Source: Octopus vulgaris (Eukaryota). Taken from it: DNA of 64,000 nucleotides. Below are positions 12,890-54,227 of this stretch, in pieces. The stretch is from positions 40,052,001 to 40,116,000 of the forward strand of contig OX597819.1 of the NCBI GenBank assembly GCA_951406725.2, in the 5' to 3' direction. How positions within the stretch are numbered: position 1 is the first letter of the stretch; the number at the start of each line of letters is the position of its first letter. The position numbers and the translations under genes were made by a program. The notes beneath the pieces are model-generated. The model worked only from the letters and a program-made list of their open reading frames with translations. It searched no databases and was not told where the DNA came from.

Positions 12890-13068
12890 TCTCTCTCTCT
12901 CTCTCTGATCGGTCGTGTTATTCTTTGCTCCGCAGTGAAAGATTGTTTTTGTGCTGAAAAGTTTGAAAAATTGCTGTTTTGGTCGTCGAGGCCACTTCTT
13001 TTCTGCTGTTGTAGCAGAGTTCTGCTGTTCTTTCCCCCTTGTTTCAAGGGGGGAAGTGACGAAAAGAC

Positions 13069-14400
13069 ATGAATTTGCAACCAGTCTCCTCCGAGTCGGA
13101 GGAAAACGTTGAAAATTTGTTTGAAGGCATGAAGGCGAAAATGCGGGAGGAGGAAGGTAGAAGTAAAGAGACGTCTCACGCGAGCGTTACAAAAGCAGAC
13201 GACAATATGTCTGGCGAAGCTAGTAAACGACAAGAAAAGGCAAAAATAAATTTTGCGAGTGCAGCAACTCGCCCCTGTGAAAATATAGTCATCAACAAGG
13301 AAGAATTAAAGAAATACCAAGGACTACTAAAAAAAGAAGGTGATAATGTGAAGTTGTTCCCTCCCAGTGAATTGATTTACGCGACGGAGAGAAAAACTGT
13401 CATATACAAGACGTATAATGTCAAAAATAAGAAAATTGACTTCGTACAGAGAGAAGCCATTGAAAAATGTTTGAGGCCGATATGGCAACAAACTACGTTT
13501 ATAACAAGGGGTAGTCGCTTCGGCACGGTAGAGGTGCGTTTCCCTAGCGAAGAAATAGCTAGGGAACATTCAACAAGAACGTTGAAGTCAGAAGAGGTAG
13601 TTCTTTTACCATTATATTTAGGAATGAGAACTAGCAGGATAACAGTCACGGATATTCCGCCCGAAATAGATGTGGACTTTGTAACAGCAGCGATTCTCTT
13701 TGGCAAAGAGGAAGAAATTGCCATTCTTCAGTCTAAAAGATATCGCCCCACAACCTGGTATAGACAGGACTTAGAGCTTGTGATCCAAGCGAACCCCTCG
13801 GACTTAGAAAAATTGCCAAGCTCCCTCACCATTGGAGATAATACCACCTTGATGGTAATAGTCGAGGGAAGAAAACCGAGGTGCTATAAATGTGGCGAGA
13901 AAGGCCACATAAGGTCGAGCTGCAAGAAGACAGCGAAAGAAAATACTGCAGAGGCAAGCACGACGCCGAAAACAACTTCACCGCTAGAAATAGCAGCCAC
14001 GTCGCGCACCCCAATTGCCGAAATTCAGCCGACAACGGGAGAAAACAACGACAACAACGATGACAACAACAACAACAACAACATCCAGGAGTGGGTCAAC
14101 GTGGAAGCTTCAAAAAGAAGACAGAAACGGAAAATTCCGCCCTCTTCGGATACACAGGACTATACTCTGACACAGACAAGCACACCCACACCCACAAATA
14201 CAGTCGCAAACACACACGTAGCCAAAAAAACACACACACTGGAAAAAGCACACACAAACACTCACACACCTACCACAAGCACGCACACACCTACAAACAC
14301 CCACGCTTCTACAAGCACACACACACCCACAAACACACACACACAGCCCCCTCCACAATCACCTAACAAAAAAAAGAAACACCTTCACGGCGATAAATAA
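13069..14400 (+). CDS. LINE ORF1, gag-like nucleic-acid-binding protein with a CCHC zinc knuckle
   Basis: 443 aa with CYKCGEKGHIRSSC. A one-base shift in the A-run near 14370 would extend the frame to TAA at ~14689 with one internal stop, so the C-terminus is probably damaged. Confidence 0.85.
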   Translation: MNLQPVSSESEENVENLFEGMKAKMREEEGRSKETSHASVTKADDNMSGEASKRQEKAKINFASAATRPCENIVINKEELKKYQGLLKKEGDNVKLFPPSELIYATERKTVIYKTYNVKNKKIDFVQREAIEKCLRPIWQQTTFITRGSRFGTVEVRFPSEEIAREHSTRTLKSEEVVLLPLYLGMRTSRITVTDIPPEIDVDFVTAAILFGKEEEIAILQSKRYRPTTWYRQDLELVIQANPSDLEKLPSSLTIGDNTTLMVIVEGRKPRCYKCGEKGHIRSSCKKTAKENTAEASTTPKTTSPLEIAATSRTPIAEIQPTTGENNDNNDDNNNNNNIQEWVNVEASKRRQKRKIPPSSDTQDYTLTQTSTPTPTNTVANTHVAKKTHTLEKAHTNTHTPTTSTHTPTNTHASTSTHTPTNTHTQPPPQSPNKKKKHLHGDK

Positions 14401-14708
14401 AAACAATAACCCATTAAGGGAAAAAATTAATTTACTGAAATCGGCGAAAAAATATATCGCAACAGATATAAATAGTATTATATCTGAAAATGTAGAATTT
14501 TATACGATAGATAACGCGGATTATTTTGAAATTTAAAAATCTTTTGCGGAGGACGTAGGCCCGTTACAGATGAACTTTTCAAGCCATCTGTACAAGCAAT
14601 TCGCAAAAAAACTGACCTCGCAAAACACAACACTCACAGACAGAAAAGATGAGGGTGAAACTACACCCTCTCTTCTGTTAAAACAGTAAGTTTTAAACAT
14701 TCGACTAA

Positions 14709-17700
14709 ATTTTCACTTTCTCGTTTAAACTCGGTTGTATAAATACTCGCGGCCTGGGGTCGTATTGGAAGCAAGGCTACCTCCTTAACGACCTTAGGTC
14801 GCATCGTTTGGATGTAGTGGTAATTACCGAATCCAGACTGAGTGGGCTGCAGGCCTTTTCGCCCCTTCTAAACGGCTACGAGAAATACATTTCTCCCTGT
14901 CGACCTGGAGGGGGAGGAGGAGTGGCAGTGCTGGTCAGGAAAAACCTGGATTTAGAGATTAGAACTGTCTTTATAGATCCGGAAGGCAGGTTGGTCGTTT
15001 TGGATGTGACGCACAGCAGTGGTAAAGTGTTCAGGCTGGTCGCTGTCTATGCTCCCTGCGAAGGAAAAGCCGGGCAGAAAGAGTATTTCAAAAGCCTAGA
15101 GAATTTTCTTGGCACGTCGAACACGTTAGTATTGCTAGGTGACTTCAACATAATTTGCGATGCAAGCGTAGATTATGTTGGCTCGAGAAAGAATACGAGG
15201 GGATTACCTCACCTCAACGATATGCTAAGTCGTTTCGAATTGGCAGATAGATTCAGACTGGACCATCCAGACACTCCAGCGTGGACCTGGGCAAGAAACG
15301 ACGGGTCGTCCAGATCTTATATCGATAGAATCATAACTAGAAGGAAAGATAAGAAAATACTTAGCTGTCCATAACACCATATCGTAGGCTACAGCGATCA
15401 CAAATTAGTGACCTGTACGCTCGACATAGATGGCATGTGTAGACGAGGTACCGGTTACTGGAAGCTAAACAAGTCACTATTGGACTGTGAAGCCTACAGG
15501 AATCGGATTAAACAATTAGTAATGAGGGCGTTAACCGGATCCATTATCAACAATAAATGGTGGTACGCCCTGAAAAGAGCCATCAAATTTGAGTCAATTA
15601 GGTTTAGCAAAGAAATAGCTAGTGCTAGAAACAAAGTAGAAAAGGAACTAGTTAAGGCAATAGAGGAGGCAATGAGGTCAGGCAGTGCATCGAAAGTGTT
15701 AGCGGCGAGGTTAGCACTAGACCAACATCTCAAAGCTAAACATGAAGGGTGCATTGTCAGGGCTAAGATCCGTGCAATGAGACAGGAAGGGATCAACGCA
15801 GCCGGATGGGCCCGGGTGGTAGAAGGCCAGCGTGGCAACAACTCAACCATTCGATCCTTGACGGGCCCAAATGGTCGATTAGTAAACGAACCCGAGGAGA
15901 TGTGCAAGGTGTTTCATGATCATTTCGCCCAGCTATTCGGGAGGAGCGGCGGGCTGGAGCGCGGGGAGAAGCTCGCAGACTTCCTAGCCGGTTCGCCGCG
16001 TCTATCGGGGCCGGACGCGGAATCTTGTAAGGCGCCGATCACAGCCAAAGAAGTCGTGGATATGTTGGCAGACTGCGGCGGGGACAAGTCGCCGGGACTC
16101 GATGGTCTGCCTTACGAACTCTATAGTAGCATGCCAGACTTGTTTGGGCACCTACTTGCATGCGTGTACACCAACTGGCAGCAGAACGGGAGAATTCCTA
16201 AGTCTGTGAGCCGAGGGGTGGTAGCGCTGTTAAGAAAGGACCCAAACAAGGGGGATTTAATTGATAATTTCCGGCCTATCACCCTGCTTAACGCAGAGTT
16301 GAAGATCTTGGCCAAGGTCTTAGCAAAAAGGTTGGCGAGGGTCGTGGGTGAACTTGTTGGCGAGGCGCAAACTTGCGCCATCCCTGGAAGGACCATCCAC
16401 GACAATCTCCACTTTCTACGCTATGCCTTAGAAAGGGTAAATAGGATTCCTGGCAAGGGTGGGGCTATGGTCCACTTGGACCAATCGAAAGCGTTTGATA
16501 GGGTGGACCATCAGTATCTGGCGGCGGTCCTCGCGGCGGCTGGCTTCGGCCCGACCTTCCGCGGGTGGATCATCGCTTTATACAGCAACATCGAATCGGT
16601 AGTTCGGGTAAATGGTTTCCTTTCGGAGCCGTTCAGCATTGAACGTTCGGTACGTCAAGGGTGTCCTCTCTCCCCGCTTCTCTACGTTTTGGCCCTCGAG
16701 CCGTTGCTGAGGAGGTTGGAAACTATGAGAGGCACCCCGCAAGATCTAGGGTGCGGAAAGTCAGCTTCGGCGTATGCGGACGACATCACCGTCATCGTTT
16801 CCCGAGTCGAGCACCTACAGTGGGTGGGTGAGGCCTTAAGGGACTACGAAGCGGTTGCAGGAGCGAAAGTCAACCGGGATAAATCGGTCGGCTTGCAACT
16901 CGGCACATGGAGGGGCAAGTCGATGTCTTCCGACAGCGTCGTAGGGCGTTGGACGGAAGGACCGGTGAAAATGCTTGGGATCTGGTTAGGTCCAGATCTC
17001 CAGATAGAGAAGAACTGGAGCGAGGTGGCGAGAAAGGTGGCTCTCCTAACTCAGACATGGTCTGAGCGGAAACTATCCTTGAAAGGGAGGGCGGAGGTTG
17101 CAGAAGTGTTTATCGCCTCTGTAATCACTTACCGCCTAACCGTAATGCCTTGCCCCGATTCGTGGCTGAACAAACTGGAACGCATGCTCTTTCGCTTTTT
17201 GTGGAGGGGCAGCAGACCTCTTGTAAGGCGCTCTATTTGCTGCCAAAAGCCGCTGAAGGGTGGGTTAGGGATGCCGTGGCTAAAAATGCGCAGACATGCG
17301 CTCAGGCTTAGGCACCTCTGGATTTACCTGGACGGTGAGCAGGTGTGGTCTCCGTTTGTCAAGCTGTTATTTCCACAGTTCACATCGTTTAACGAACTGA
17401 ACCTATGGATCAAGTGTAGACCGAGGTTGGGCATGTGGCATGCAGAGTGCTATCAGGCACTCGTGCTTCTCTCCCAGTCGGGCAACGCCGGTGGCGGGGC
17501 TACTACCGCTTTCTTCTATAGAGGGTTAGTAGAGTTTAAGTGTGTCGACGTCCTAGGAGAAACTCTGGGCTTCGACGAAAATCAACTGGCCAGCCTGTTC
17601 CAAAGAACATTCGGTCCGGGGCCTATGGATAATTACCAAAAGTCCCTGGTCTGGCAATGTTACAGAGGAGCTTTACCGGTTCGAGATAAGCTCTTTAGAC

Positions 17701-18125
17701 ATGGGTGTGCACCTTCGCCGGTTTGTGCAAGATGTAAGAGGGACAGTAAAACTGTCCTGCACGCGATTGTGCAATGCCCCAAGGTGACTGAACTCTGGGC
17801 TTATGTCGAACACCTGCTGTCGCATTCGAGAAGAGTACAACTGTCGAGCGAATCTGTAATTAAGATAGTTCCGCCGACCTTCCTGAATAGGGAGGAGCGA
17901 GCCTGTTTTCTTTCGGTAGTTGCTATGGCGAAAGAAGTAGTGTGGAAGACGAGAGTAAAAGGAATTGCAACAGGCATGTTTATCTCCAGTCTCGAGCTAA
18001 TCGACTTTTTCGTTTTCCACATGAAACGGAAAATAAGGCTGGAGAAGAAATGCCTGTCGCAAAGTGTGTTTCGTAAAAGATGGAAGTCTATAGCAAGTAT
18101 GTTGCGAGTGAAAGAACCTGTTTAA
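14709..18125 (+). pseudogene. LINE ORF2: APE endonuclease, reverse transcriptase and C-terminal CCHC, with one premature TAA at 15372-15374
   Basis: One frame reads KLGCINTRGL, ITES, VAVYAP, LGDFN, SYIDR, *, YSDH, YWKLN, KSPGLDG, FRPITLLN, LDQSKAFDRV, SVRQGCPLSP, AYADD and CARCKRDSKTVLHAIVQC. There is no ATG ahead of the APE start. Confidence 0.93.
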
Positions 18126-31619: not shown

Positions 31620-34600
31620 CGCCTATATCACACTATCTCCGCCTATATCACACTATCTCCACCTATCTCACTCTATCTCCACCTATGTCACTCTATCTCA
31701 CTGTATTTCACTCTCTCCCAGGTGTTTTAACACCTAGCATTAATTAGAAATCTCCTAAAATGCTATTCCGCCAATCTCCGGCTACCTCCGGCAATCCCCG
31801 GTAATTTCTGGCAGTCTCCGGCAATCTCCGGGTATCTCCGCCTATCTCACTCACTCCCAGGTGTTTTAACACCCAGGATTATTGGGAAATCTCCCAAAAT
31901 GCTATTCCGCCTATCTCCACCAATCTCCGCCTATCGCCGGCAATCTCCGCCACTCTCCTCCAATCTCACTCCATCTCCGCCAATCTCCGCAAATCTCACT
32001 CTATGTAAATAAAATAGAATAAAAAATAAAATAAAATATTTATTGTTTTTTATACTATTTTTTCTTTTATTTTATTTTATTGTATTTCATTTTATATTTT
32101 ATTTTCATATTATTTTATTTTAATCTATTGATTTTTAAATTTTTTTTATATTATTTTATTTTATTTTATTTATTTAATTCTTTTATATTTTATTTTTTAT
32201 TTTATTTAAAAAAAATTTTTTAATTTATTTTATTTAATTTTCTTTTTTTAATTTATTTTTAATTTATTTATTTTTAAACTTTTTTTATATTTTTTTTGAA
32301 TTTCTATTTTATTACTTTCTTTTATTTTATTTCATTTTATTTTATTTTATTTTTTTATTTAATATTTATTCTTATTTATTTAAATATTTTTATTATTATT
32401 TTATTATTTTAGTTTATATTATTTTATTTTATGTTATTTCATTTTTTATTTTTTTATTTTATTCTTTTATATTATTTTTTTTCTTATTTTTTCTTATTGT
32501 ATTTTATTTTATTTTATTTTATTTTATTTCATTTACTTTTTTTATGAGATTTCATTTTATATCATAATTTTTATTTTTTTATTTAAATTTTATTTTATTT
32601 TATTTTATTTTATTTATTTAGGTATTTTCTTCTTTTCTTAATTTTGCTTTTCTTTGTTAAGTTTTTATTTTTATTTTTATTTTTTTGTTATTTTATCATT
32701 ATTTTTTATTTTATTTCATTTTATTTTATTTTTTATTTTATTTTATTTTATTTCATTTAATTCTATATATTATTTATATTTAAAATTTTTTTTTATTATC
32801 TCCGCCTATCTTACTCAACCTTCGCCTATCTCACTCTACCTCCGCCTATCTTCGCCTATCTCACTCTATCTCCGCCTATCTTACTCTATCTTACTCTATC
32901 TCCCTCTCTCCCATGTGTTTTAACCCCCAGCATTATTGGGAAATCTTCCAAAATGCTATTCCACCTATCTCCGCGTTTCTCCACCAATCTCACTCTCTCC
33001 CTCTTTCCCAAAATGCTACTCTGCCTATCTCCGCCAATGTCAGCCAATCTCCGCCAATCTCACTCTATCTCCGCCAATCTCACTCTATCTCCGCCTATCT
33101 CACTCTATCTCCACCTATCTCACTTTATCTCCGTCTATCTCATTCTATCTCACTCTATCTCACTCTCTCCCAGGAGTTTTAACACCCAGCATTATTGGGA
33201 AATCTCCCAAAATTCTATTCGGCCAATCTCCGGCAATCTCCGGCTATCTCCAGCTATCTCCGCCTATCTCACTCCATCAAAATAAAATAAAATAAAATAA
33301 CATAAAAATAAAATTTTAATAAAAAAAATAAACAAATGAAAAAACAATTTTAAAAAATTAAAAAAATTTAAATACAAAAAATTTACTTTATTATTTATTT
33401 ATTTTTTTTAAATAAAATAAATTAAAATGATATAAAATTAAAATAAATATAAAATTTTTAAAAATTGAATAAAAAACTTTAAAATAAAATAAAATAAAAT
33501 AAAAAATAAAATAAAATTTTAATAAATGAAAACAAATATTTATTTTTTTGTTTAAATTTTTTATTTTTTTATTTTATATTATTTTATTTTCTATTTTTTT
33601 TCATTTTATTTTATTCTATTTTATTTTTTCTTATTTTATTTTATTTATCTCCCAAATAAAATAAACATTTTAATTTTTTATTTTTGTTATTTTTTAATTA
33701 TCTCCGCCTATCTCAATCTATCTCCGCCTATCTCACTCTATCTCCCAGCATTATTGGGAAATCTCCTAAAATACTATTCCGCGTATCTCCGCCAATCTCC
33801 GCCTATATCCGCATATCTCCGCCAATCTCCGCCAATGTCCACCCATCTACGCCAATCTCACTTTCTCCATCTCTCGCAGGTGTTGTAACACCCGGCATTA
33901 TTGGGAAATCTCCCAAAATGCTATTCCGCCTATCTCTGGGAATCTCCGAGAATCTCCGCCTATCTACGCCTATCTCCGCCATTCTCCGCCAATCTCCGCA
34001 TATCTCCGCCATTCTCACTCTATCTTCGCCTATCTCCGCGTATCTCAATCTATCTCACTCTCTCCCAGGTGTTTTAACACCCAGCATTATTGTGAAATCT
34101 CCCAAAATGCTATTCCGCCAATCTCCAGTAATCTCCTGCTATCTCCGGCTATCTCCGGCTATATCCGGCTACCTCCGGCAATCTTCGGCAAACTCCGGCA
34201 AACTCCGCCAATCTCCACCTATCTCCGCCACTCTCAGCCAATGTCCGCTTATCTGACTCTGTCTCCGCCTATCACATTCCGCCTATCTCCGCCTATCTCA
34301 CTCTATCTCTGCCTATCTCCGCAAATCTCCGCCAATCTCGCCAATCTCGCCAATCTCACTCTATGTAAATAAAATGAAATAAAAAATAAAATAAAATAAA
34401 TAAAATGAAATAAAATAAAATATTTATTTTATTTTCATTTTATTTTTTATTTTATGTTATTTTATTCTATTTTAATTTTTTTTATTTTATATTATTTTAT
34501 TTTGTTTTATTTTATTTTCTATGTATTTTAGTTTATTTTATTCTTTATTTTATTTTATATTATTTTATTTTATTTATTTTATTTTTTAATTTTAATTTAT

Positions 34601-37404
34601 AAAAGAATAAAAAAATTTATTTTATTTTTTACTTTTTGTTGCTCTTTAATTATCTCCGCCTACCTCACTCCATCTCACTCTAACTCACGCTTTCCCAGGT
34701 GTTTTAACACCCAGCATTATTATGAAATCTCCCAAAATGCTATTCCGCCAATCTCCTGCTACCTCCGGCTATATCCAGCTATCTCCTGCTATCTCCGACT
34801 ATCTCGGATATCTGCGGCTATCTCCGGCAATCTGCAGCAATCTCCGTCTGTCTCCGGCAATCTCCAGCAAACCCAGGCTATCTCTGGCTATCTCCTGGAA
34901 TCTCCAGCTTTCTCCGGCTATCTCCGGCAATCTCCGATGATCTTCGGGTCTTTCCGGCAAACTCCGGTAATCTTCGGCAATCTCCGCCATTCTCCGCCTA
35001 TCTAACTCTGTCTCAGGTGTTTTAACACCCAGCATTATTGGGAAATTTCCCAAAATGCTATTCCACCAATCTCCGGCAATCTCCGGCTATCTCCGGCATT
35101 CTCCGGTAATCTCCGGTAATCTCCGGCAATTTTCGGCAATCTCCGACAAACGCCAGCAAACTCCGGTAATCTCCCGCAAAGTGCGGTGAACTCCGGCAAT
35201 CTCCGCCAAACTCCAGCAATCTCCGGAAAACTGCTGCAATCAGCGGCAAACTCCCGCATTCTCCAATTTTCGTACAATCTCCGGTAATCTCCGGCAATCT
35301 CCGGAAAGCTCCGGAAAATTTCGGCAATCTACGGCAATCTCCGGCAGACTCCGCAATGTCTGGAAAACTCCGGCAATCTCCGGCAAACTCCTGCAATCTC
35401 CAGCAATCTCCGGCAAAACACCGGCAATCTACGGCAATCTCCAGCAAACTCCGCCAATCTCACTCTATCTCAAAATATCTCACTCTATCTCACTATCTCC
35501 AAGGCCTTTTAACTCCCAGCATTATTGGGAAATCTCCCAAAATGCTATTCCCCCTATATCCACCAATCCCCGCCTATTCTCCGCCAATCTACAACAATCT
35601 CACCCTATCTCCGCCAATCTCAGCCAATCTCCGCCAATCTCACTCTTTCTTCGCCTATCTCACTCTCTCCCAGGTGTTTTAAGATCCAGCATTATTGGGA
35701 AAATCTCCCAAAATGCTATTCAGCCTATCTCCGCCTATCTCCGGGTATCTCCGCCAATCTCTGCTTATCTCCGCAATATCTCCACCAATCTCCGCCAATC
35801 TCCGCATATCTCTGCCAATATCCGCCTATCTCCGCATATCTCCGCCTATCTCCGTAAATTTCTGCCAATCTCCGACAATCTCTGCCAATCTCCGCACCTC
35901 TACACTAATCTCCGCCAATCTAACTTTCTCCCTCTCCAGCATTATCGGGAAATCTCCCAAAATGCTATTCAGCCTATCTCCGCCTATATCCGGGTATCTC
36001 CGCCAATCTCTGCTTATCTCCGCAATATCTCCACCAATCTAGGCCAATCTCCGCGTATCTCTGCCAATATCCGCCTATCTCTGCCAATTTCCGACAATCT
36101 CTGCCAATCTCCGCACCACTACACTAATCTCCGCCAATCTAACTTTCTCCCTCTCCAGCATTATTGGGAAATCTCCCAAAATGCTATTCCGCCTATCTCC
36201 GGCAATCTCCGGTAATCTCCGCCAATCTCCGCCTATCTCACTCTATCTTCGCCTATCTCACTCTATCAAGAGAAAATAAAATAAAAATGAAAACAAATAA
36301 AAATAAAAAACAATAAAAAAAACAAAAACTTTTTTAAATAAAATTTTTTTTTATTTTATTGTATTTTATTTTTATTTTGTTTTTAATTTTATTTTTATCT
36401 ATATTTTATTTTATTTTATTTCATTTTCATTTCATTTTTTTTATATTTTACTTTTTTTAGTATTTTATTTTTATTTTTATCTATATATTTTATATATTTT
36501 TAAATTTCATTTTATTTTATGTTATTTTATTTTTTTAATTTAATTTTATTTTAATTTTATTTGTTATTTTATTTTATTTATTTTATTTTATTTTATATCA
36601 TTTTATTTTATATTATTTTATTTTTTATATTATTTTTTATTATTTTTTATATTATTCTATTTCATTTTATTTTTTTATTCATTTGTTATATTTATTTTCA
36701 TTTTATCTTATTTTATTTTAATTTTTTATAATTTTATTTTCATTTTATTTTATTTTATTAAATAAATAAAATAAAATAAAGTGAAAAAATAAAAATAAAA
36801 ACAATTAAAAGAATAAAAAATTTTAAAGAATTAAAAAAAATAAATAAATTTGTTTTTAAATATCTCCACCTATCTCACTCTATCTCCACCTATCTCACTC
36901 TGTTTCCACCTATCTCACTCTATTTCCGCCTATCTCACTCTCTCCCGGGTGTTTTAACACCCAGCATTGGGAAATCTCCCAAAATTCTATTCCGCCAATC
37001 TCCGGCTATCTCCGGCAATCTCCGGCTATATCTGACTATCTCCACCTATCTCCGCCTATCTCACTCTATCTCCGCCTATCTTACTCTATCAAAATAAAAT
37101 AAAATAAATATTAAAAAATAAACAAATGGGAAAAAAAACAATTAAAAAAAACAAACATAAAAAATATAAAAATTATTTATTTATTTATGTATTTATTTTT
37201 TTTAAATAAAAAAATTAAAATAAAATATGAAATATAAAACATAAAATAAATAAAATAAAAAATAAAATTAAATCTAAAATATAAGAAAAATTATTTTTTA
37301 TTTTTTATTTTATTTTATTTTATTCTTTTTTTTTATTAATTTTTTTATTTTAATTTTTTTCAATATTTTTTCCTTTTGATTTTTATTTATATTTTTTTAT
37401 TTTA
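31620..37404 (+). repeat. Complex satellite: ~14 copies of a ~50-bp double-hairpin motif in 10-bp (ctatctccgc/caatctccgg) repeats, alternating with almost pure A/T blocks
   Basis: Motif ggtgttttaacacccagcattattgggaaatctcccaaaatgctattccg, complete or 5'-truncated, at about 31721, 31860, 32914, 33173, 33744, 33879, 34068, 34698, 35016, 35503, 35673, 35936, 36155 and 36948. Confidence 0.9.
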
Positions 37405-38555
37405 AGCTGCCTAACTCAGCTCCATACAACGCTATGACTGGGTGCTAAAACGACTGCTCAACCACTCAAATGTGGAAGTCTTGGGACCACTACTGTTCAT
37501 AATGGCCCTCTCAGACATGCCCTCAGCTACGCAGAGAGCCACGATCACAAGTTATGCAGATGAAACAAAAGTTTCACAGGCAATACAGAACCCTGAAGAC
37601 ACTATGCACCTGCAATGTGAGCTGGACAAAATATACAAGTGGGCTGAAAAGAATAGCATGCAGTTCAATGCTGAAAAGTTTCAAGCTTTATGTTATCAGC
37701 ATGCAAAACTAAATGCAATACCCAATAAATACACTGGACCTGGAGGGATTGCAATCCCAGAGGCACAATCAGTGCGAGACCTGAGTATTTACATGAGTGA
37801 TGATGCAACCTTTCATGTGCATGTTGCTAAATTGGCAATGAAATGTAGGCAGCTGACCGGACGGATTCTTAGAACCTTTAGAACAAGAGACCAGGAAACC
37901 ATGATGGTCCTCTGGAGGACACTTGTCCTAAGCCACTTTGACTATTGCTCTCAGCTATGGTCACCAACCAGTGTCAAATTAATCACAGAACTTGAGGCGA
38001 TCCAACGAAGCTACACGAATAAGTTAGCCTATGTGCAGCATATAAGCTACTGGGAAAGACTCAAGAGATTAAGACTCTATTCCTTAGAGCGTAGGCGAGA
38101 AAGCTATGCCATAATATACATCTGGAAGATCCTGGAGGGACTTGTCCCAAACTTTGGCATTGAGAGTTACACAAATACTAGAACTGGGCGCCACTGCATA
38201 GTTCCAAGGACTCCAAATTTTCCATCAAGATGTAGGACAAGATACTGTGATAGCCTGGGCTTCAGAGACCCACAACTCTTCAATATCCCCCCGAAGAACC
38301 TGAGAGACCTGCATGGAGTAGATGCAGATGTCTTTAAAATAAAACTGGTTCTCTTCCTGTCAGGTGTCCCAGATGAACCAACTTCACGGCAGGAGGTGCA
38401 GATGAGGGCAGCTGCATCGAACTCTCTCATGCACCAAACGGCAATTACTAAAAAGCATTCGTGAAGTAAAATCATGTAGCAACACCAAATGGCGGTGCCC
38501 CAGCATGGCCACAGCTCGTGAGCTGAAACTAGATAAAATAAAATAAAATAAATAA
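37405..38555 (+). mobile_element. 5'-truncated CR1-group LINE (RT C-terminal half, 3' UTR and (TAAAA)n tail), internally deleted
   Basis: SCLTQL..DWVLKRLLNHSNVEV is fused to LGPLLF (the DFAKAFD..GVPQG segment is missing); SYADETK, MQFNAEK, DYCSQLWSP and YWERLKRLRLYSLERRR follow. Confidence 0.88.
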
Positions 38556-38701
38556 ATATATACATATATATATATATATATGCAATAAAAGCAATTAAGA
38601 TTCAAGTCAATTCTAATGAATTTACTTGAATGCGGTACTTAACTTAGATGCACCAGAAAACTATATGGTGTTAACCATACAGTAATGTGGGGTGATTATA
38701 A

Positions 38702-39822
38702 ACGAGAAAGAAGCAACAAGAATGGATTAGTTTTTAGTACAATTGTTTCATACAAAGACAGGCTTTATTAAAAGTTGCAAAAATTGCAGCAGATAAAAGT
38801 GTCCCGTACTCATCAGCTAAAATACATATGAGTTCTCCAAACATCTTAGTGGGTGAGGCTATACTCATGAAGTATTGGAGATAATTTCATTAAAAGCAGA
38901 TTTAGGTTGTAAACAGATTTCCAAAGTTCCTTAATGATGATGCACAGTCATATCACAGGTTTTTAAAAAAAGCTTATTAGCTTCACAGAGAAGGTGAATT
39001 AATCCGTAGTGTAGATGTAAATTTCCAGAGATATGAGGAGGAATTTCATACTCACAGACGATGAATTTATCCATGGTTAATCCACAATGAGGTGGGTATC
39101 ATTTCATGCTATATGATAAGGTATTTGCCACATTACTGTTCTTTTCACAAGACTGCTAAGTTATGACTTCTAAAGGCTGAAGGAATTTTTGTGGAGCAAA
39201 GAAAAGAAAAGAAAGGAAAGAGAAGAAAAGAGACAAGGAAAGGGAAAAAGAAAAAAGAAAAAGGAAAAAGAAAAAAGAAAAAAGGAAAAGAAAAAAGAAA
39301 AAAGAAAAGAGGGGAGAAGAAAAGAAAAAAGAAGAAAAAAGAAAAAGAAAGAAGAAAAAAAGAAGAAAAAGAAAAAAGAAAAAGAAAAAAGAAAAAAGGA
39401 AAAGAAAAAAGAAAAAAGAAAAAGGGGAGAAGAAAAGAAAAAAAGAAGAAAAAGAAAGAAAAAAGAAAGAAGAAAAAAAGAGAAAAGAAAAAAGGGGAAA
39501 GAAAAAAGGGAAAGAAGGGAGAAAAGAAAAAACGCCCACATAGAGTATACTGTGACAACTTGGAGGGAAGGGGGTTCTAAAGTGACATACTACACAGAAG
39601 AATTTGTAGACGGCCTGGCTGGCTTGAATTTGCAAGAATCCAGGAACTATAAGGAGAATATTATTTTTGACCATGGAGCAGAGTTGGCAACCAACCCTGT
39701 TATTTTTATACGGCATTGCTCTCCTAACTATTTCCCAATTAAGGTTATAATTCCTGTTATTATTTTTGAGTTCCCAGATCTTACTTGAAAGTGTGGTGGT
39801 ATCAGCTTTATGATGTAATTTA
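38702..39822 (-). mobile_element. Inverted arm of a Penelope-like insertion
   Basis: Reverse complement of 39866-41594, lacking 40018-40773 (TGG microhomology at the junction). Confidence 0.88.
38732..38822 (-). ncRNA. Type I hammerhead ribozyme (mirror of 41474-41564)
   Basis: Reverse complement of the plus-strand copy with the core intact. Confidence 0.8.
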
Positions 39823-39865
39823 AAAGATGAGACGTGATTTCTAACTCTGTCTTTAAAATTTATCG

Positions 39866-41593
39866 TAAATTACGTCATAAAGCTGGTACCACCACACTTT
39901 CAAGTAAGATCTGGGAACTCAAAAATAATAACAGGAATTATAACCTTAATTGGGAAATAGTTAGGAGAGCAATGCCGTATAAAAATAACAGGGTTGGTTG
40001 CCAACTCTGCTCCATGGAGACCTATGAGATTCTAAGGCATAGAAAAAATAGAGGTTTGTTAAATAACCATATTGAAGTAGGTCAAGTTTGTGTCCACGCT
40101 AAATTGAAGACTCTAAAATATTTTAAATGAATAACTGTATAGCATAATCGTAACAAGATAGATAGATAGATATAGCTGGGTTTTTACTAGTATAGCATTA
40201 CTTTAATTTTTAAGTAGATAACTGCGAGTTCTCACACTATAGTTATCTTTTTCTTTATAACTGCACCTGATTTTGAGCACAAGGAAATAAATAGTACTTG
40301 TACGTTGCTTAAATGAAGTTTTATTTAATTTTAAATCTTAATTTTTAATTTTTAATTTTGAATTTAATCTAATTTAAGTAACACAACTTTAATAAAATAA
40401 GTTACTTAGGCTTCATAATTCTTTTACAAAATTAAATAAGTAAGGCTACTCCCTTGAAAAGTAGTATGAGAAATTTCAAAATAATAGACAATTCCATCAC
40501 ACCTTGTAAACTAATCTTCTAAGTTTTGACCTGTAGTCTGTCAATGTATAGATAGTAACGGCAACAATTTAAGACAGTAACAGGAATAAATAAATAAATA
40601 AATTTAAATGACCTCTTGTTAGGATTGCACTTAGATTTTTTCTCTTAATGTATTTCCTTTTGATGATAGCCTTTGACCCCTCTACCCCTGACCTTGTTAT
40701 CTCTTTAGATTCTCTTTAGATTCATATCTGCTTTCAACTACGTCAGGTTGGCAATAAATAGCTGTTTTACTGGTCAAAAATAATATTCTCCTTATAGTTC
40801 CTGGATTCTTGCAAATTTAAGCCAGCCAGGCCGTCTACAAATTCTTCTGTGTAGTATGTCACTTTAGAACCCCCTTCCCTCCAAGTTGTCATAGTATACT
40901 CTATGTGGGCGTTTTTTCTTTTCTCCCTTCTTTCCCTTTTTTCTTTCCCCTTTTTCTTTTTCTTTTTCTTCTTTTTTTCTTCTTTCTTTTTTCTTTTTTC
41001 TTTTTTCTTTTCCTTTTTTCTTTTTCTTTTTCCTTTTTCTTTTTTCTTTTTCCCTTTCCTTGTCTCTTTTCTTCTCTTTCCTTTCTTTTCTTTTCTTTGC
41101 TCCACAAAAATTCCTTCAGCCTTTAGAAGTCATAACTTAGCAGTCTTGTGAAAAGAACAGTAATGTGGCAAATACCTTATCATATAGCATGAAATGATAC
41201 CCACCTCATTGTGGATTAACCATGGATAAATTCATCGTCTGTGAGTATGAAATTCCTCCTCATATCTCTGGAAATTTACATCTACACTACGGATTAATTC
41301 ACCTTCTCTGTGAAGCTAATAAGCTTTTTTTAAAAACCTGTGATAAGACTGTGCATCATCATTAAGGAACTTTGGAAATCTGTTTACAACCTAAATCTGC
41401 TTTTAATGAAATTATCTCCAATACTTCATGAGTATAGCCTCACCCACTAAGATGTTTGGAGAACTCATATGTATTTTAGCTGATGAGTACGGGACACTTT
41501 TATCTGCTGCAATTTTTGCAACTTTTAATAAAGCCTGTCTTTGTATGAAACAATTGTACTAAAAACTAATCCATTCTTGTTGCTTCATTCTCG

Positions 41594-41594
<1 letters not shown>
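39866..41594 (+). mobile_element. Penelope-like element 3' end: GIY-YIG C-terminus and pseudo-LTR
   Basis: TTLSSKIWELKNNNRNYNLNWEIVRRAMPY..CQLCSMETYEIL..LLN..CVH (ORF 39834-40130) is a typical Penelope endonuclease C-terminus; it ends in (TA)n. Confidence 0.88.
41474..41564 (+). ncRNA. Type I hammerhead ribozyme with canonical core and long stem II
   Basis: Stem I UUUUAG (41474-79) with CUAAAA (41559-64); CUGAUGA (41480-86); stem II GUAC..GUAU; GAAAC-AAUU-GUA with predicted cleavage after 41558. Confidence 0.82.
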
Positions 41595-41624
<30 letters not shown>

Positions 41625-41804
41625 GTATACTACTACTACAACCACCGTGGTCACTGTTGCTACGGCCACAGTGAGAGAATTATAATAATGGAGGTGGGGC
41701 GAATTACAATTTCTCAGATCCTTAAACAGTCACTCACGCTGACAGTGATATGTCTTAGGGAAGGAAAAATTTATAAAAAGATCTCTCTCTACGAGCAGAT
41801 CTAA

Positions 41805-42142
41805 TCCTGATTCCTCAAAAAACTGATGACGTATTACCTCAGTGGTCAAGCTATTGTCACCCTGCTTGGTCGGTTTCCCCACACGATACAGCTATGGGTC
41901 AGACCCGATTCTGATTGGTCAAAACATTGATGACGTCTCGTTCTGCTGGACTAGCCACCTAACAGGATACAGTCATGGGTCAGATCTAATTTCGATTCGT
42001 CAAAAAAATGATGACGTATTTCTTCCGTTGCCAAACTGTCGTTCCGCTTGGTTGGTTTCCTAACACGATACAGTTAGGAGTCTTTTCACTATATTCGTTG
42101 AGACTGGGTTTTGATTGGTTTGGAACTATATGACGTCAGTGA
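41805..42142. promoter_or_regulatory. Four degenerate ~80-120-bp-spaced units, each with a (T/C)GATT(G/C)G box followed by ATGACGT (CCAAT-like and CRE/ATF-like)
   Basis: ctgattcctc..tgatgacgt (41807), ctgattggtc..tgatgacgt (41911), tcgattcgtc..tgatgacgt (41992) and ttgattggtt..atgacgtca (42111). The repeat is real; function is unproven. Confidence 0.4.
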
Positions 42143-42315
42143 AAAGTGCAAGTGACCACAGCTTAGCTGAGCTGATATAAATCCAACAATCACAAAATTC
42201 ACCAAAATTATGCGAGCAGACACCGACCAAAAATCATTACTGTTGCTCCCATTGGAACACAAGGTAAAATCTAAAATGAACTCCTCGCCTTTCCAAGAAC
42301 ATGAATTTCTTATTT

Positions 42316-42498
42316 TTGACTCTATTGAATGTATGTCACAATTATGAACTACTACATCATACTCTTTAAACATATAGCATGGACTCTCTTTATTATATAT
42401 GAATTTTTTATATTTGACTCTATTGAATATATGTCACAATTATTAACTATTACATCATACTCTTTAAACATATAGCATGGACTCTCTTTATTATATAT
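42316..42498. repeat. Tandem duplication of a ~97-bp unit
   Basis: tttgactctattgaat..ggactctctttattatatat occurs twice. Confidence 0.9.
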
Positions 42499-42615
42499 AA
42501 TTTTTTTTATAAGGTTCGTCATTTCAAGAACCGAAACATGTTAAATTAAAATTTGTCTAATATAGCAGCATTTTCAAACTTCATATATACCCACTCGTAT
42601 ACGAGTTAATCTTAT

Positions 42616-43333
<718 letters not shown>

Positions 43334-44920
43334 CCACCACTCACCACTTGTATCTCCCCGGAGGTAGCTCCGCTGGCCACTACTGCCCGACGTCTATCCT
43401 TCAGAAAGTCGTGCAGCCACTCTCTAAGTTTTCTGCCCACACCAAGACCACGCAGTTTGTGACATATCATACCGCTGTCGACTTTATCAAAGTCTTCTGC
43501 AAAGTCAAAATATATCACATCCACACTTGAATCATTTCGCAGCTGTCTCAACACCCAGTTGCAGTACTGCAAGGGCTGTGTTAGACAGCTTCCACCTGGT
43601 CGAAATCCATGCTGAGCGCCAGTCAGCAAGTCATTTTCTTCAAGGAACGTGATTAGCTTCCTGCAGACCATTCATTCCATGACTTTGCTGATGTGCGAGG
43701 TCTGAGAGATAGCCCTATAGCTTTTAGCATCTGCTCTGCCTCCTCCCCGACAGATAGAGCACGCTATCCCCTCCTTAAGCTCATCCGGAAGCCTACCATC
43801 CACAAGAAAGCTCTGAAAAAGAAGCTGCAGTGGGTCATCAAGTGCTCGCCAGCACAACACGAGAAGGACCGCTAAAAATCCACCAGGGCAAGCAGCTGAG
43901 TCCACATCTACCCCCACCCATGGCCAGCGCTACATCTTTTTCCTCAATGTTGATGTACTCAATTTTCGTCTCTTTGGTTACAGGTAAAGTGGCAACGAAT
44001 TCTGTTGGTTTGTTCATTTGCCTATGTCCCAGAGGTGTAGTGAACACACTTTGGAACTGTTCGTTCAGTATTTCACTTATCATCATGGGGTTTCCTCTGA
44101 GGAAGCCATCTCCCCGGAAGAGGTGTACCACCCACCCTCCGACGCACTGAGGCCGCCTCTTTGGCATACTTAAAAACTTTGAGGTTCAACTTGATGTTTT
44201 CTATAACCAAAGCTTTTTTTATCTGCTCTCTCCTTCTCATGAGACTGATGCAGACTTGACTTTTTTCAATCTCCAATAACGTTCTCTGCAGGTGAGACTT
44301 CCCACTACTTTTGGGGTGCTTGCTCAGACGGTTCACAATCTTTGTCCGTCGTCTCATAAGAATCTTCCTTTTCCTAGGAATCCTGTTTTTGTGTATGTTA
44401 ACCCCTGCACAATGGGACATATTTGTCATATATGGCTTGTTTTATCGACATTAAATGCTTGCTTTATGTCAATGTCTGGTGTGGAGAGACATTTAGGCCA
44501 ATCCTGTTTGATGATCTCTCTTCCAATCAATTTCCAATTTGCTTTATGAAAATTTAGTTTGGAGAGACTGTGGGTGCTTCGCATAGGCTGCATGTCTGCA
44601 GGGGTTTTTGGTCCACACATAGACAGCTGCACCATATTGTGATCCGAGACCAGTGTCGGCATCACTCTAACACCATGGATAATGTCCTTGTTGTTTGTGA
44701 AGCAGAGATCCAGTATATTATTTGCCCTAGTTGATTGCAGCACAATCTGCTCCATGAAAGAAGCATTGGGAAGGTGGAGCCAGGACTCTGCCTGTGCCAG
44801 CTGGTGGTGTTTTATTCCTGAGAGCATCTGGCCCTCGGCCACCCCACACTGGAGAAGTTAATGTCACCCAAAAGGAATACACTGATGTGTTGTTCCAGTT
44901 TGGTGAGAATTTCTATCTTG
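43334..44920 (-). mobile_element. CR1-group LINE ORF2 fragment (end of endonuclease to mid-RT), frameshifted
   Basis: [51 protein letters not shown] and [10 protein letters not shown] motifs. Confidence 0.88.
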
Positions 44921-52885: not shown

Positions 52886-54227
52886 CTGTAACAGACAGTA
52901 AGAGTTGACATAACTGGCATAATGTTACATACAATAAATAACACTTTATTCTTCGGGTTCACCAGTAAAATATATACATATATATTTGTTAAGGGCGAAC
53001 CGGCAGCCAAGTCCACAGGTCATCTTACATGACAAAGCAATATTTATTAACTAGAGTACTCAAACCATCAATAATGACAGGTGTTTTACTAAGCTTTGTG
53101 ACAATTACATTTTGGTTTGAATGCATGAATATTCATTTTTTTTCCAATTGAAGGTAATGTTACAAAATGCACATGATGAAAGTTGCTAATGAGAGTATGA
53201 GAATGTGCATAAAATTGCCAAAAATAAGAGGAAAATAAAATTATTTAGCACTCCCTAATTAATAAACAGGTTTCATTAGTTTTAATATGTACAATGTGGT
53301 AGTCAATGATTCACTCATTATTCTACATTAAGTTTCAAAGATGATGTATATGTATTCAATTTCACAAATGTACATCTATATGTAATCAAAACTACCAAAA
53401 TATATACATAATTACACAAGGTTACATGATTTCACAAACAGGTTAAACATGTGTAGCAGGTTTGGTTTAAGCAAAAGTTGCACATTTACAATATATCATT
53501 TGACACATTCCATGCAAAAGGTACACATTTTCAAAGAAGACAGCAGAACAAACTTTGAAATACGAAAAAAAACTAAACACAATGACTTCAGCCCAAGTAA
53601 GAATAATTTAGAACTCGTGTCAAATGAGTTAGAGAGTAAATCATATAAATTGGCACAAATTCAACAGCTTTAAATATATAGTGACGCTACTGTGGAAGTT
53701 TCAGCATGCATGCGCAGAATTGGATTACAGTGTTTTGATGCGATCAGTACCGCATCCCATCTACAAAGGATTAATAGGCACATGGCTAAAATCACATTTT
53801 CATGCCCCCCTATTAAAAAAGGCCTATATCAATAAACAACCAGTGAGTCAGTCCTGTCCTGGATGCACATGTAGAGATAAATCCAGATACCACAACCATC
53901 TTTCAACCATCAGACACTGTGAGAAGGGACATATAACAACCCTTTCAGCATTAATCTGGAAACCTGAGGACAAGAACTGTGCTACATCAAATGGAAAATC
54001 TTTCCTAAACCAAACACTATATTAACAGGTCAGGTAATGTTTGATATGTTCCCTTGAAAAAATTGTATCTTTTAAAAAAACTTAAGTACCTCTAATGAGT
54101 GTGTGAATACCAGAAACAAGACATTTTCTTTATGCCTGCATTTTTAAAAATACATCTTAATGGAAATTAAAGAACAACCACCAGACACATCATAAACCAT
54201 TCCAGTCTGGTTTATATAATTTTGATA

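What the first reader, a model, noticed from the sequence alone, without database searches (positions are those of the whole stretch)
38702..41594. Fold-back Penelope insertion carrying two outward-facing, intact hammerhead ribozymes
Seen: two Penelope 3' ends joined head to head around a ~45-nt spacer (39823-39865). Each has a canonical type I hammerhead (CUGAUGA / GAAAC-AAUU-GUA, 6-bp stem I) about 30 nt from its outer end. Stem II is ~60 nt and can fold as an extended hairpin, and stem III is a short palindrome (ACAAUUGU). Established: Penelope pseudo-LTRs carry minimal hammerheads that often cleave as dimers through a palindromic stem III, and inverted 5' arms are typical of these elements. 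Inference: a read-through transcript from either strand would fold into ~1 kb of dsRNA with one hammerhead near its 3' end that could be masked by its own antisense copy. That would make it a self-limiting ADAR/siRNA substrate. The long stem II is atypical for minimal Penelope hammerheads.
Basis: partly seen in the sequence, partly recalled or inferred. Interest (0 to 1): 0.72.

Follow-up and report, generated by a model that had tools for sequence, protein, structure and literature searches.

The report
Twin-primed Hydra-type Penelope fold-back insertion
This 3-kb DNA palindrome is one of many hundreds of similar back-to-back insertions of a jumping gene whose end carries a predicted self-cutting RNA with an unusually long middle stem; the locus itself is ordinary, but the family's near-strict rule of one long end and one short end per insertion likely records how these elements copy themselves.

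Summary
The palindrome and both hammerhead motifs are real, but the anatomy needs correcting. The insertion runs 38583-41594. The 'spacer' is endonuclease-coding sequence of the left arm; the arms join at a 2-nt overlap. The element is a Hydra-clade Penelope-like retrotransposon (all listed motifs met), host likely an octopus, with 1,630 intact-core hammerheads in the genome. Fold-back is common in the family. In 72 of 73 pairs exactly one arm is tailed, and partner arms agree at 1,170 of 1,179 polymorphic pair-sites: likely two priming events on RNA of one source. The 60-nt stem II is family-wide (published Hydra: 10-24 nt). Stems I and III covary, and the fold favours a dimer. A 'self-limiting' device is not supported: a transcript holds one ribozyme, predicted to be masked, and a cut would remove only 36 bp of ~930. 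Transcription of the locus is untested. The layout is published (Penelope-13_HM), and this scan noted similar fold-backs on other DNA of this genome.

The parts
38556..38582 (.). Left (TA)n target microsatellite, at the 3' end of a LINE-type RT fragment
   Evidence: RT fragment 37415-38464 Pfam RVT_1 E 3e-5
38583..38701 (-). Tail (~119 nt): 5' UTR sequence of the next unit, present on this arm only
   Evidence: matches other copies over 116-119 nt; precedes the ORF in full-length copy L114
38702..39673 (-). Left (tailed) arm, 3' UTR part, inverted copy of 40771-41594
38732..38822 (-). Hammerhead motif of the left arm; predicted cut 38738/38737
   Evidence: identical to the right copy
39198..39532 (-). 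Pyrimidine-rich tract of the left arm (longer than on the right)
39671..39673 (-). TGG microhomology junction across which 754 nt are missing from the left arm
   Evidence: single genomic match
39671..39867 (-). Left arm, GIY-YIG coding fragment; includes the supposed spacer 39823-39865
39866..39867 (.). Head-to-head junction, 2-nt overlap (TA)
39866..40130 (+). Right arm: C-terminal end of the GIY-YIG endonuclease ORF with CxxC and CxH motifs, stop at 40128-40130
40131..41594 (+). Right arm: 1.46-kb 3' UTR, tail-less end
40018..40770 (+). 754 nt without a partner in the left arm (bulge in any fold-back RNA)
40912..41098 (+). Pyrimidine-rich tract of the right arm
41474..41564 (+). Type I hammerhead motif; predicted cut 41558/41559
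41487..41546 (+). 60-nt stem II; apical hairpin 41508-41520 is a frequent arm-junction site in other copies
41595..41630 (.). Right (TA)n target microsatellite; no target-site duplication can be discerned

Best explanation
This is one 5'-truncated insertion of an abundant Hydra-clade Penelope-like retrotransposon in a (TA)n microsatellite, likely made when both nicked target strands primed reverse transcription on RNA from one source locus at two fixed sites about 117-119 nt apart, and the two cDNA ends were then joined head to head. SHOWN: family, clade motifs, two end types, one of each per pair, a shared source for partner arms, (TA)n flanks. INFERRED: double nick, twin priming, joining by short overlaps or repair; the template was uncleaved RNA, since both arms run past the predicted cut. 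Whether the tail-less end is an internal start or a source's 3' end read into (UA)n is open. The hammerhead is family cargo, predicted to cut as a dimer in tandem pLTR-ORF-pLTR transcripts; at this locus it is predicted to be silent. The 754-nt loss is a private template jump or a later deletion.
For: Ends fall in two classes over all loci L021-L120 plus the window. Exactly one arm is tailed in 52 of 53 classified pairs (54 given, L064 unclassified), 9 of 9 and 11 of 11: 72 of 73, p 8e-21 against 0.5. Partner arms agree at 1,170 of 1,179 common-polymorphic pair-sites in 44 pairs, 383 discordant expected if unrelated, and share alleles seen in at most one other sampled arm (34 sites in 50 loci). 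Here the arms differ at 5 of 716 nt. Some tailed arms hold tail sequence only (L064, L100, L112), the non-overlapping geometry of twin priming. PMC11167929 shows in vitro two RT start sites bounding the tail, cleavage and extension of both strands, a predicted dimer, and uncleaved RNA as the substrate. Dimer active fold -31.0 kcal/mol vs -19.8 for two monomer active folds; the monomer fold is 0.25% of the ensemble.
Against: No biochemistry for this family. One pair has two tail-less ends (L056). Many copies have no partner within 5 kb. Nine pair-sites are discordant. Agreement between arms could partly come from gene conversion or from two RNAs of one source. Junctions are mixed: 17 of 47 overlap by 1-6 nt, 4 are blunt, 26 have extra bases. 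Pairs were picked by eye and favour young, intact copies.
Confidence: 0.72

Rival explanations
1. Self-priming or snap-back: one cDNA (or an antisense RNA) folds back at a palindrome and is copied, giving the second arm (model discussed in PMC3846280).
For: 10 of 47 junctions sit at the apical palindrome of stem II and 17 of 47 have an arm ending in stem II (the sample favours short arms that hold the ribozyme's 3' half). Partner arms are near-identical. Palindromes at inverted junctions are reported in PMC3846280.
Against: A copy cannot exceed its template, yet the tailed arm reaches further 5' in 21 and the tail-less arm in 14 of 46 pairs (a few junction calls are rough). Here each arm holds sequence the other lacks (45 nt and 754 nt). 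Tail-only arms do not overlap their partner.
Confidence: 0.12
2. One reading: a functional, self-limiting dsRNA (ADAR/siRNA) device at this locus.
For: Read-through RNA is predicted to form ~926 bp of duplex; both cores are intact; cephalopods edit dsRNA heavily (recalled; PMC5625713 seen in a search listing only).
Against: Same layout at hundreds of loci; ribozyme predicted masked and without a dimer partner; a cut removes 36 bp only; no A>G strand bias in genomic copies; the arms differ by 0.7%, as for a young unselected copy.
Confidence: 0.05
3. Two independent insertions in one microsatellite, or arms homogenised later by gene conversion.
For: Separate insertions in one (TA)n do occur, facing inwards (L038/L039, L073, L084).
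Against: No target DNA between the arms (2-nt overlap); one-tail rule 72 of 73; conversion would not set end types.
Confidence: 0.05
4. Assembly or library fold-back artefact.
For: Palindromes are artefact-prone; this locus was not checked with long reads.
Against: The arms differ at 5 sites, in tract length, by 754 nt and by the tail; each end has its own flank; the same rule holds at 72 of 73 pairs.
Confidence: 0.01

Closest known systems
Hydra clade of C-terminal EN+ Penelope-like elements (Craig et al. 2021, PMC8557442), e.g. Penelope-13_HM, Hydra-1_Obim
   Same: RWK, DKT, CxCX5C, CxxC/CxH, no CCHH, (TA)n target, hammerhead with palindromic stem III. Penelope-13_HM is listed with a 5'-truncated inverted copy and a hammerhead on each strand.
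   Different: Unit ~4.7 kb (published: generally under 3 kb) through Asn-rich inserts and a 1.46-kb 3' UTR; stem II 60 nt against 10-24 nt in the Hydra rows of File S2 (my count); hammerhead differs from that of Hydra-1_Obim.
Poseidon_Ac (PAc) of the green anole, two-site internal RT initiation (PMC11167929)
   Same: Two end types bounding a tail; AT-rich target; ribozyme upstream of the start sites; uncleaved template.
   Different: Other clade; tail here ~117-119 nt (30-40 bp is the usual figure) and wholly in the 5' UTR; the parts read do not state a one-tail-per-pair rule or link the two starts to the inverted arm.
Minimal PLE hammerheads (Cervera and de la Pena 2014, PMC4209133)
   Same: Type I, palindromic helix III, predicted dimer; opposite-strand pairs 100-700 bp apart were already seen in Schistosoma.
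   Different: Helix II 6-8 bp there; here a 9-bp base plus two further helices. The nearest long stems seen are Selaginella PLE-X (~50 nt, flagged as deviating).
LINE-1 twin priming (recalled, not read)
   Same: A second target strand primes on the same RNA, giving a 5' inversion joined by short overlaps.
   Different: Here the second site is fixed and the two arms usually cover the same sequence.

Membership tests
Hydra-clade PLE | Single ORF, RT plus C-terminal GIY-YIG endonuclease | tested here: met
   L114 and L117 ORFs of 941 and 877 aa; window 39866-40130 is their C-terminus; aligns end to end with 11 homologues. Pfam gave no hit for the L028 and L027 ORFs.
Hydra-clade PLE | RWK motif; DKG changed to DKT | tested here: met
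   L114 and L118 ORFs against section 11 of PMC8557442
Hydra-clade PLE | CxCX5C linker; CCHH absent; CxxC and CxH around the conserved E and N | tested here: met
Hydra-clade PLE | Insertion into (TA)n | tested here: met
   flanks of nearly all ends
Hydra-clade PLE | Hammerhead near the 3' end | tested here: met
Hydra-clade PLE | Generally shorter than 3 kb (a tendency, not a diagnostic) | tested here: not met
   ~4.7-kb unit in L114
Hydra-clade PLE | Placement in an RT tree with the published Hydra proteins | not tested
   published sequences compared by eye only
Neptune / Penelope-Poseidon / Naiad | CCHH motif in the endonuclease (and N-terminal EN for Naiad) | tested here: not met
Type I hammerhead ribozyme | Core CUGAnGA, GAAA, UH and three helices | tested here: met
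   97.4% of cells paired in 17 variants against 39-51% for slid controls; two pairs change on both sides (stem I U-A to C-G; stem III A-U to G-U to G-C); structure was derived from these sequences and events are few
Type I hammerhead ribozyme | Rfam RF00163 gathering score | tested here: not met
   19.4 bits against 34; the long stem II is treated as an insert
Type I hammerhead ribozyme | Self-cleavage | not testable with these tools
   needs an in vitro assay
Non-LTR retrozyme | Short non-coding tandem units, each with a hammerhead | tested here: not met
   arms are truncated parts of a coding element; no direct pairs within 7 kb among the first 100 hits

The most novel reading that the evidence does not exclude
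The family is an in vivo record that Penelope-like inverted insertions arise by obligatory two-site twin priming, one start per target strand. The extra CG at most tail-less ends of subfamily B (185 vs 51 exact matches; the tailed form has T there) would be a telomerase-like primer realignment. The conserved 60-nt stem II would define a long-stem hammerhead class whose extension binds the element's protein or pauses its RT.
Probability: 0.3. Interest if true: 0.62.

Novelty: new variant of a known kind. Interest (0 to 1): 0.38.

Why it matters
The locus is ordinary transposon debris. The family matters more: how Penelope-like elements form tandem and inverted insertions is named as an open problem in PMC8557442, and here hundreds of young insertions give a near-strict rule (one tailed and one tail-less arm, one source) that fits the two start sites seen in vitro for another clade and can be tested directly. 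The long-stem hammerhead shows dimer-type covariation, and hundreds of fold-backs are potential dsRNA sources in a likely octopus genome.

Tried and rejected
Rfam over 36000-44500: only hairpin-type miRNA matches below their gathering scores, no hammerhead. Free folding of the ribozyme alone is no better than shuffles (z 0.21; stem II alone z -1.21). Pfam: nothing useful for the window's GIY-YIG piece or the L027/L028 ORFs. The 754-nt loss as a spliced intron or family variant: no GT-AG ends on reading the sequence, one genomic match. ADAR-edited templates: no strand bias. Expression: no RNA holder listed; contigs of four runs guessed to be RNA hold family sequence but cannot show strand, ends or locus; no contig of X16, X18, X1 or X2 bridged the private junction, which proves nothing. 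Extra conservation of the stem II extension alone was not significant (37/41 vs 235/301 in the UTR, p 0.10; whole ribozyme 84/91, p 0.002; one representative copy), and the extension shows one-sided changes only, with one pair broken in 8 of 17 rows, this copy included. Searches (pattern one base too long; structure off by one column) were slips, redone. Literature: 'Penelope + twin priming + inverted' gave 2 papers, off-topic by title and abstract start; a long-stem-II search gave only PMC4209133; subscription papers (e.g. the 2005-2006 Penelope reviews) and most supplement pages were not seen, so the one-tail rule may be in print.

Full report
1. Observation. Self-alignment shows outer arms 38697-39673 and 40771-41599 and an inner palindrome 39671-40017. 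Aligning the arms shows that the left arm, read on the minus strand, jumps from the GIY-YIG fragment to the equivalent of 40771 at a TGG microhomology, so 40018-40770 has no partner; this junction occurs once in the genome. The supposed spacer is in-frame endonuclease sequence of the left arm and matches other copies; the arms meet at a 2-nt overlap. Left of 38702 lies a ~119-nt tail shared with other copies, which in full-length copy L114 is the 5' UTR about 55 nt before the start codon. The insertion is therefore 38583-41594, between two (TA)n runs.

2. What it is. A 30-nt piece of the ribozyme's 3' half has 514 exact matches in G000 and a gapped core pattern has 1,630, control 0. Long copies encode RT plus a C-terminal GIY-YIG with RWK, DKT, YRDD, CxCX5C, CxxC and CxH and without CCHH: the motifs given for the Hydra clade in section 11 of PMC8557442. 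The only homologue with an organism name among 43 is an Octopus sinensis protein, 72% identical over 42% of the query, so the host is likely an octopus (inference). The unit is ~4.7 kb because of Asn-rich inserts and a 1.46-kb 3' UTR; Asn-rich inserts are also described in rotifer Penelopes (PMC3846280).

3. Fold-back is common in the family. Among the first 100 of the 514 hits, 50 lie in 25 outward-facing pairs; there is 1 inward adjacency and no direct pair within 7 kb. Ends fall into a tight tail-less class and a more ragged tailed class. Exactly one arm is tailed in 52 of 53 classified pairs (54 given, L064 unclassified), and in 9 of 9 and 11 of 11 pairs of other subfamilies. The exception is L056. 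Pairs were listed by eye without regard to tail state; segmental duplicates were counted once. Partner arms agree at 1,170 of 1,179 common-polymorphic pair-sites, with 383 discordant expected if unrelated (44 pairs; 10 of the 54 left out for mis-mapping, little overlap or no tail contrast). Either arm may reach further 5' (21 vs 14 of 46), and some tailed arms hold tail sequence only.

4. Mechanism. Best reading (0.72): both target strands are nicked in (TA)n and each primes RT on RNA from one source, one at the tail end and one at the tail-less site; the cDNA ends are joined by short overlaps or repair. This fits the in vitro results for the anole element: two start sites bounding the tail, both strands cut and extended, a predicted dimer, uncleaved RNA as substrate (PMC11167929). 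Both arms here run past the predicted cut, so the template was uncleaved (inference). Simple snap-back fails for asymmetric pairs, though 10 of 47 junctions lie at the apical hairpin of stem II (sample biased to short arms). In subfamily B most tail-less ends carry an extra CG that the tailed form lacks (185 vs 51 exact matches, the 51 including some family A ends such as this one; tailed form 314). That is either primer slippage or inheritance from a source's 3' end; I could not tell which.

5. The ribozyme. The 60-nt stem II is shared by all subfamilies seen. On 17 variants 97.4% of cells pair (slid controls 39-51%). Stem I changes U-A to C-G and stem III changes A-U to G-U to G-C, keeping the palindrome (few events, structure taken from these sequences). 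That third stem III pair would close a 2-nt loop in a monomer, which points to an intermolecular helix: the dimer active fold is -31.0 kcal/mol against -19.8 for two monomer active folds and -33.3 for the co-fold minimum; the monomer fold is 0.25% of the ensemble. The ribozyme is better kept than the adjoining UTR in one subfamily comparison (84/91 vs 235/301, p 0.002), the extension alone not significantly (p 0.10). Rfam scores it below the gathering threshold. Cleavage is untested.

6. Folding the whole insertion gives helices of 596, 209 and 121 bp with the ribozyme entirely paired to its antisense copy, so dsRNA and masking are predicted if the locus is read through. Self-limitation does not follow: there is no dimer partner in cis, and a cut removes 36 bp. 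No host exon was recognised among ORFs of 130 aa or more, and genomic copies show 114 A>G against 114 T>C private changes. Transcription of the locus remains untested.

7. Known and new. Inverted 5'-truncated copies with a tail often at one end are described in PMC8557442 and PMC3846280; Penelope-13_HM has an inverted copy with a hammerhead on each strand; opposite-strand hammerhead pairs are noted in PMC4209133. Departures: stem II of 60 nt (Hydra rows 10-24 nt), a ~118-nt tail, and the quantified one-tail, one-source rule, not found in searches. Papers seen: PMC4209133 parts 1-2 of 4; PMC11167929 parts 1-2 of 4; PMC8557442 passages, section 11, supplement parts 1-2 of 59 and one supplement search; PMC3846280 passages; bioRxiv 10.64898/2026.07.22.740005 part 1 of 5; PMC13282606 passages; PMC5625713 listing only. 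LINE-1 twin priming and heavy cephalopod editing are recalled. Earlier notes of this scan describe similar fold-backs elsewhere in this genome, none near this window.

8. Verdict. Real feature, ordinary locus, new variant of a known kind at the family level. Interest 0.38.

Noticed in passing
L166-L179 (e.g. L167 = G000:C28:13991928-13997033): A second, very young Hydra family: 717-aa open frames in most of the 62 scored matches, mean 99.5% identity among the 14 fetched, 2,590-bp tandems, inverted full-length pairs, a tail of about 68 nt, and a hammerhead-like motif with core CCGAAGA and a ~31-nt stem II. A good candidate for biochemistry.
   Followed up: partly
subfamily B ends, e.g. L122, L137, L158: Most tail-less ends carry an extra CG not present in the tailed form (185 vs 51 exact matches; tailed 314): primer slippage or inheritance from a source end.
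   Followed up: partly
L046, L052, L053, L055, L056, L071, L094, L095, L111; window equivalent 41508-41520: Arm junctions cluster at the apical hairpin of stem II (10 of 47 junctions).
   Followed up: partly
L036:2312-4360: Uninterrupted 683-aa frame with FMR1-like Agenet and KH domains about 800 nt from a family insertion; possibly a processed gene copy.
   Followed up: no
L041-L043 (G000:C2:206.28-206.30 Mb): An ~8.5-kb segment with a family insertion and a LINE RT fragment repeated three times in tandem.
   Followed up: no
L138: The inverted partner arm ends one base after the predicted ribozyme cut, directly on (TA)n: possibly a cleaved template; a single case.
   Followed up: no
window 13060-18125 (+): Near-intact non-LTR retrotransposon: a 446-aa zinc-knuckle-like frame, then endonuclease-like and 916-aa RT-like frames split by one stop (read by eye).
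   Followed up: no
window 32700-37400: Array of 10-bp units alternating with A- and T-rich blocks.
   Followed up: no
window 53633-54025 (+): Decayed frame resembling a Hydra-type linker and endonuclease end of another family (by eye).
   Followed up: no
P0014: A named Octopus sinensis ankyrin-repeat protein model begins with the N-terminal part of this family's RT: likely a gene-model chimera or an exonised element.
   Followed up: no
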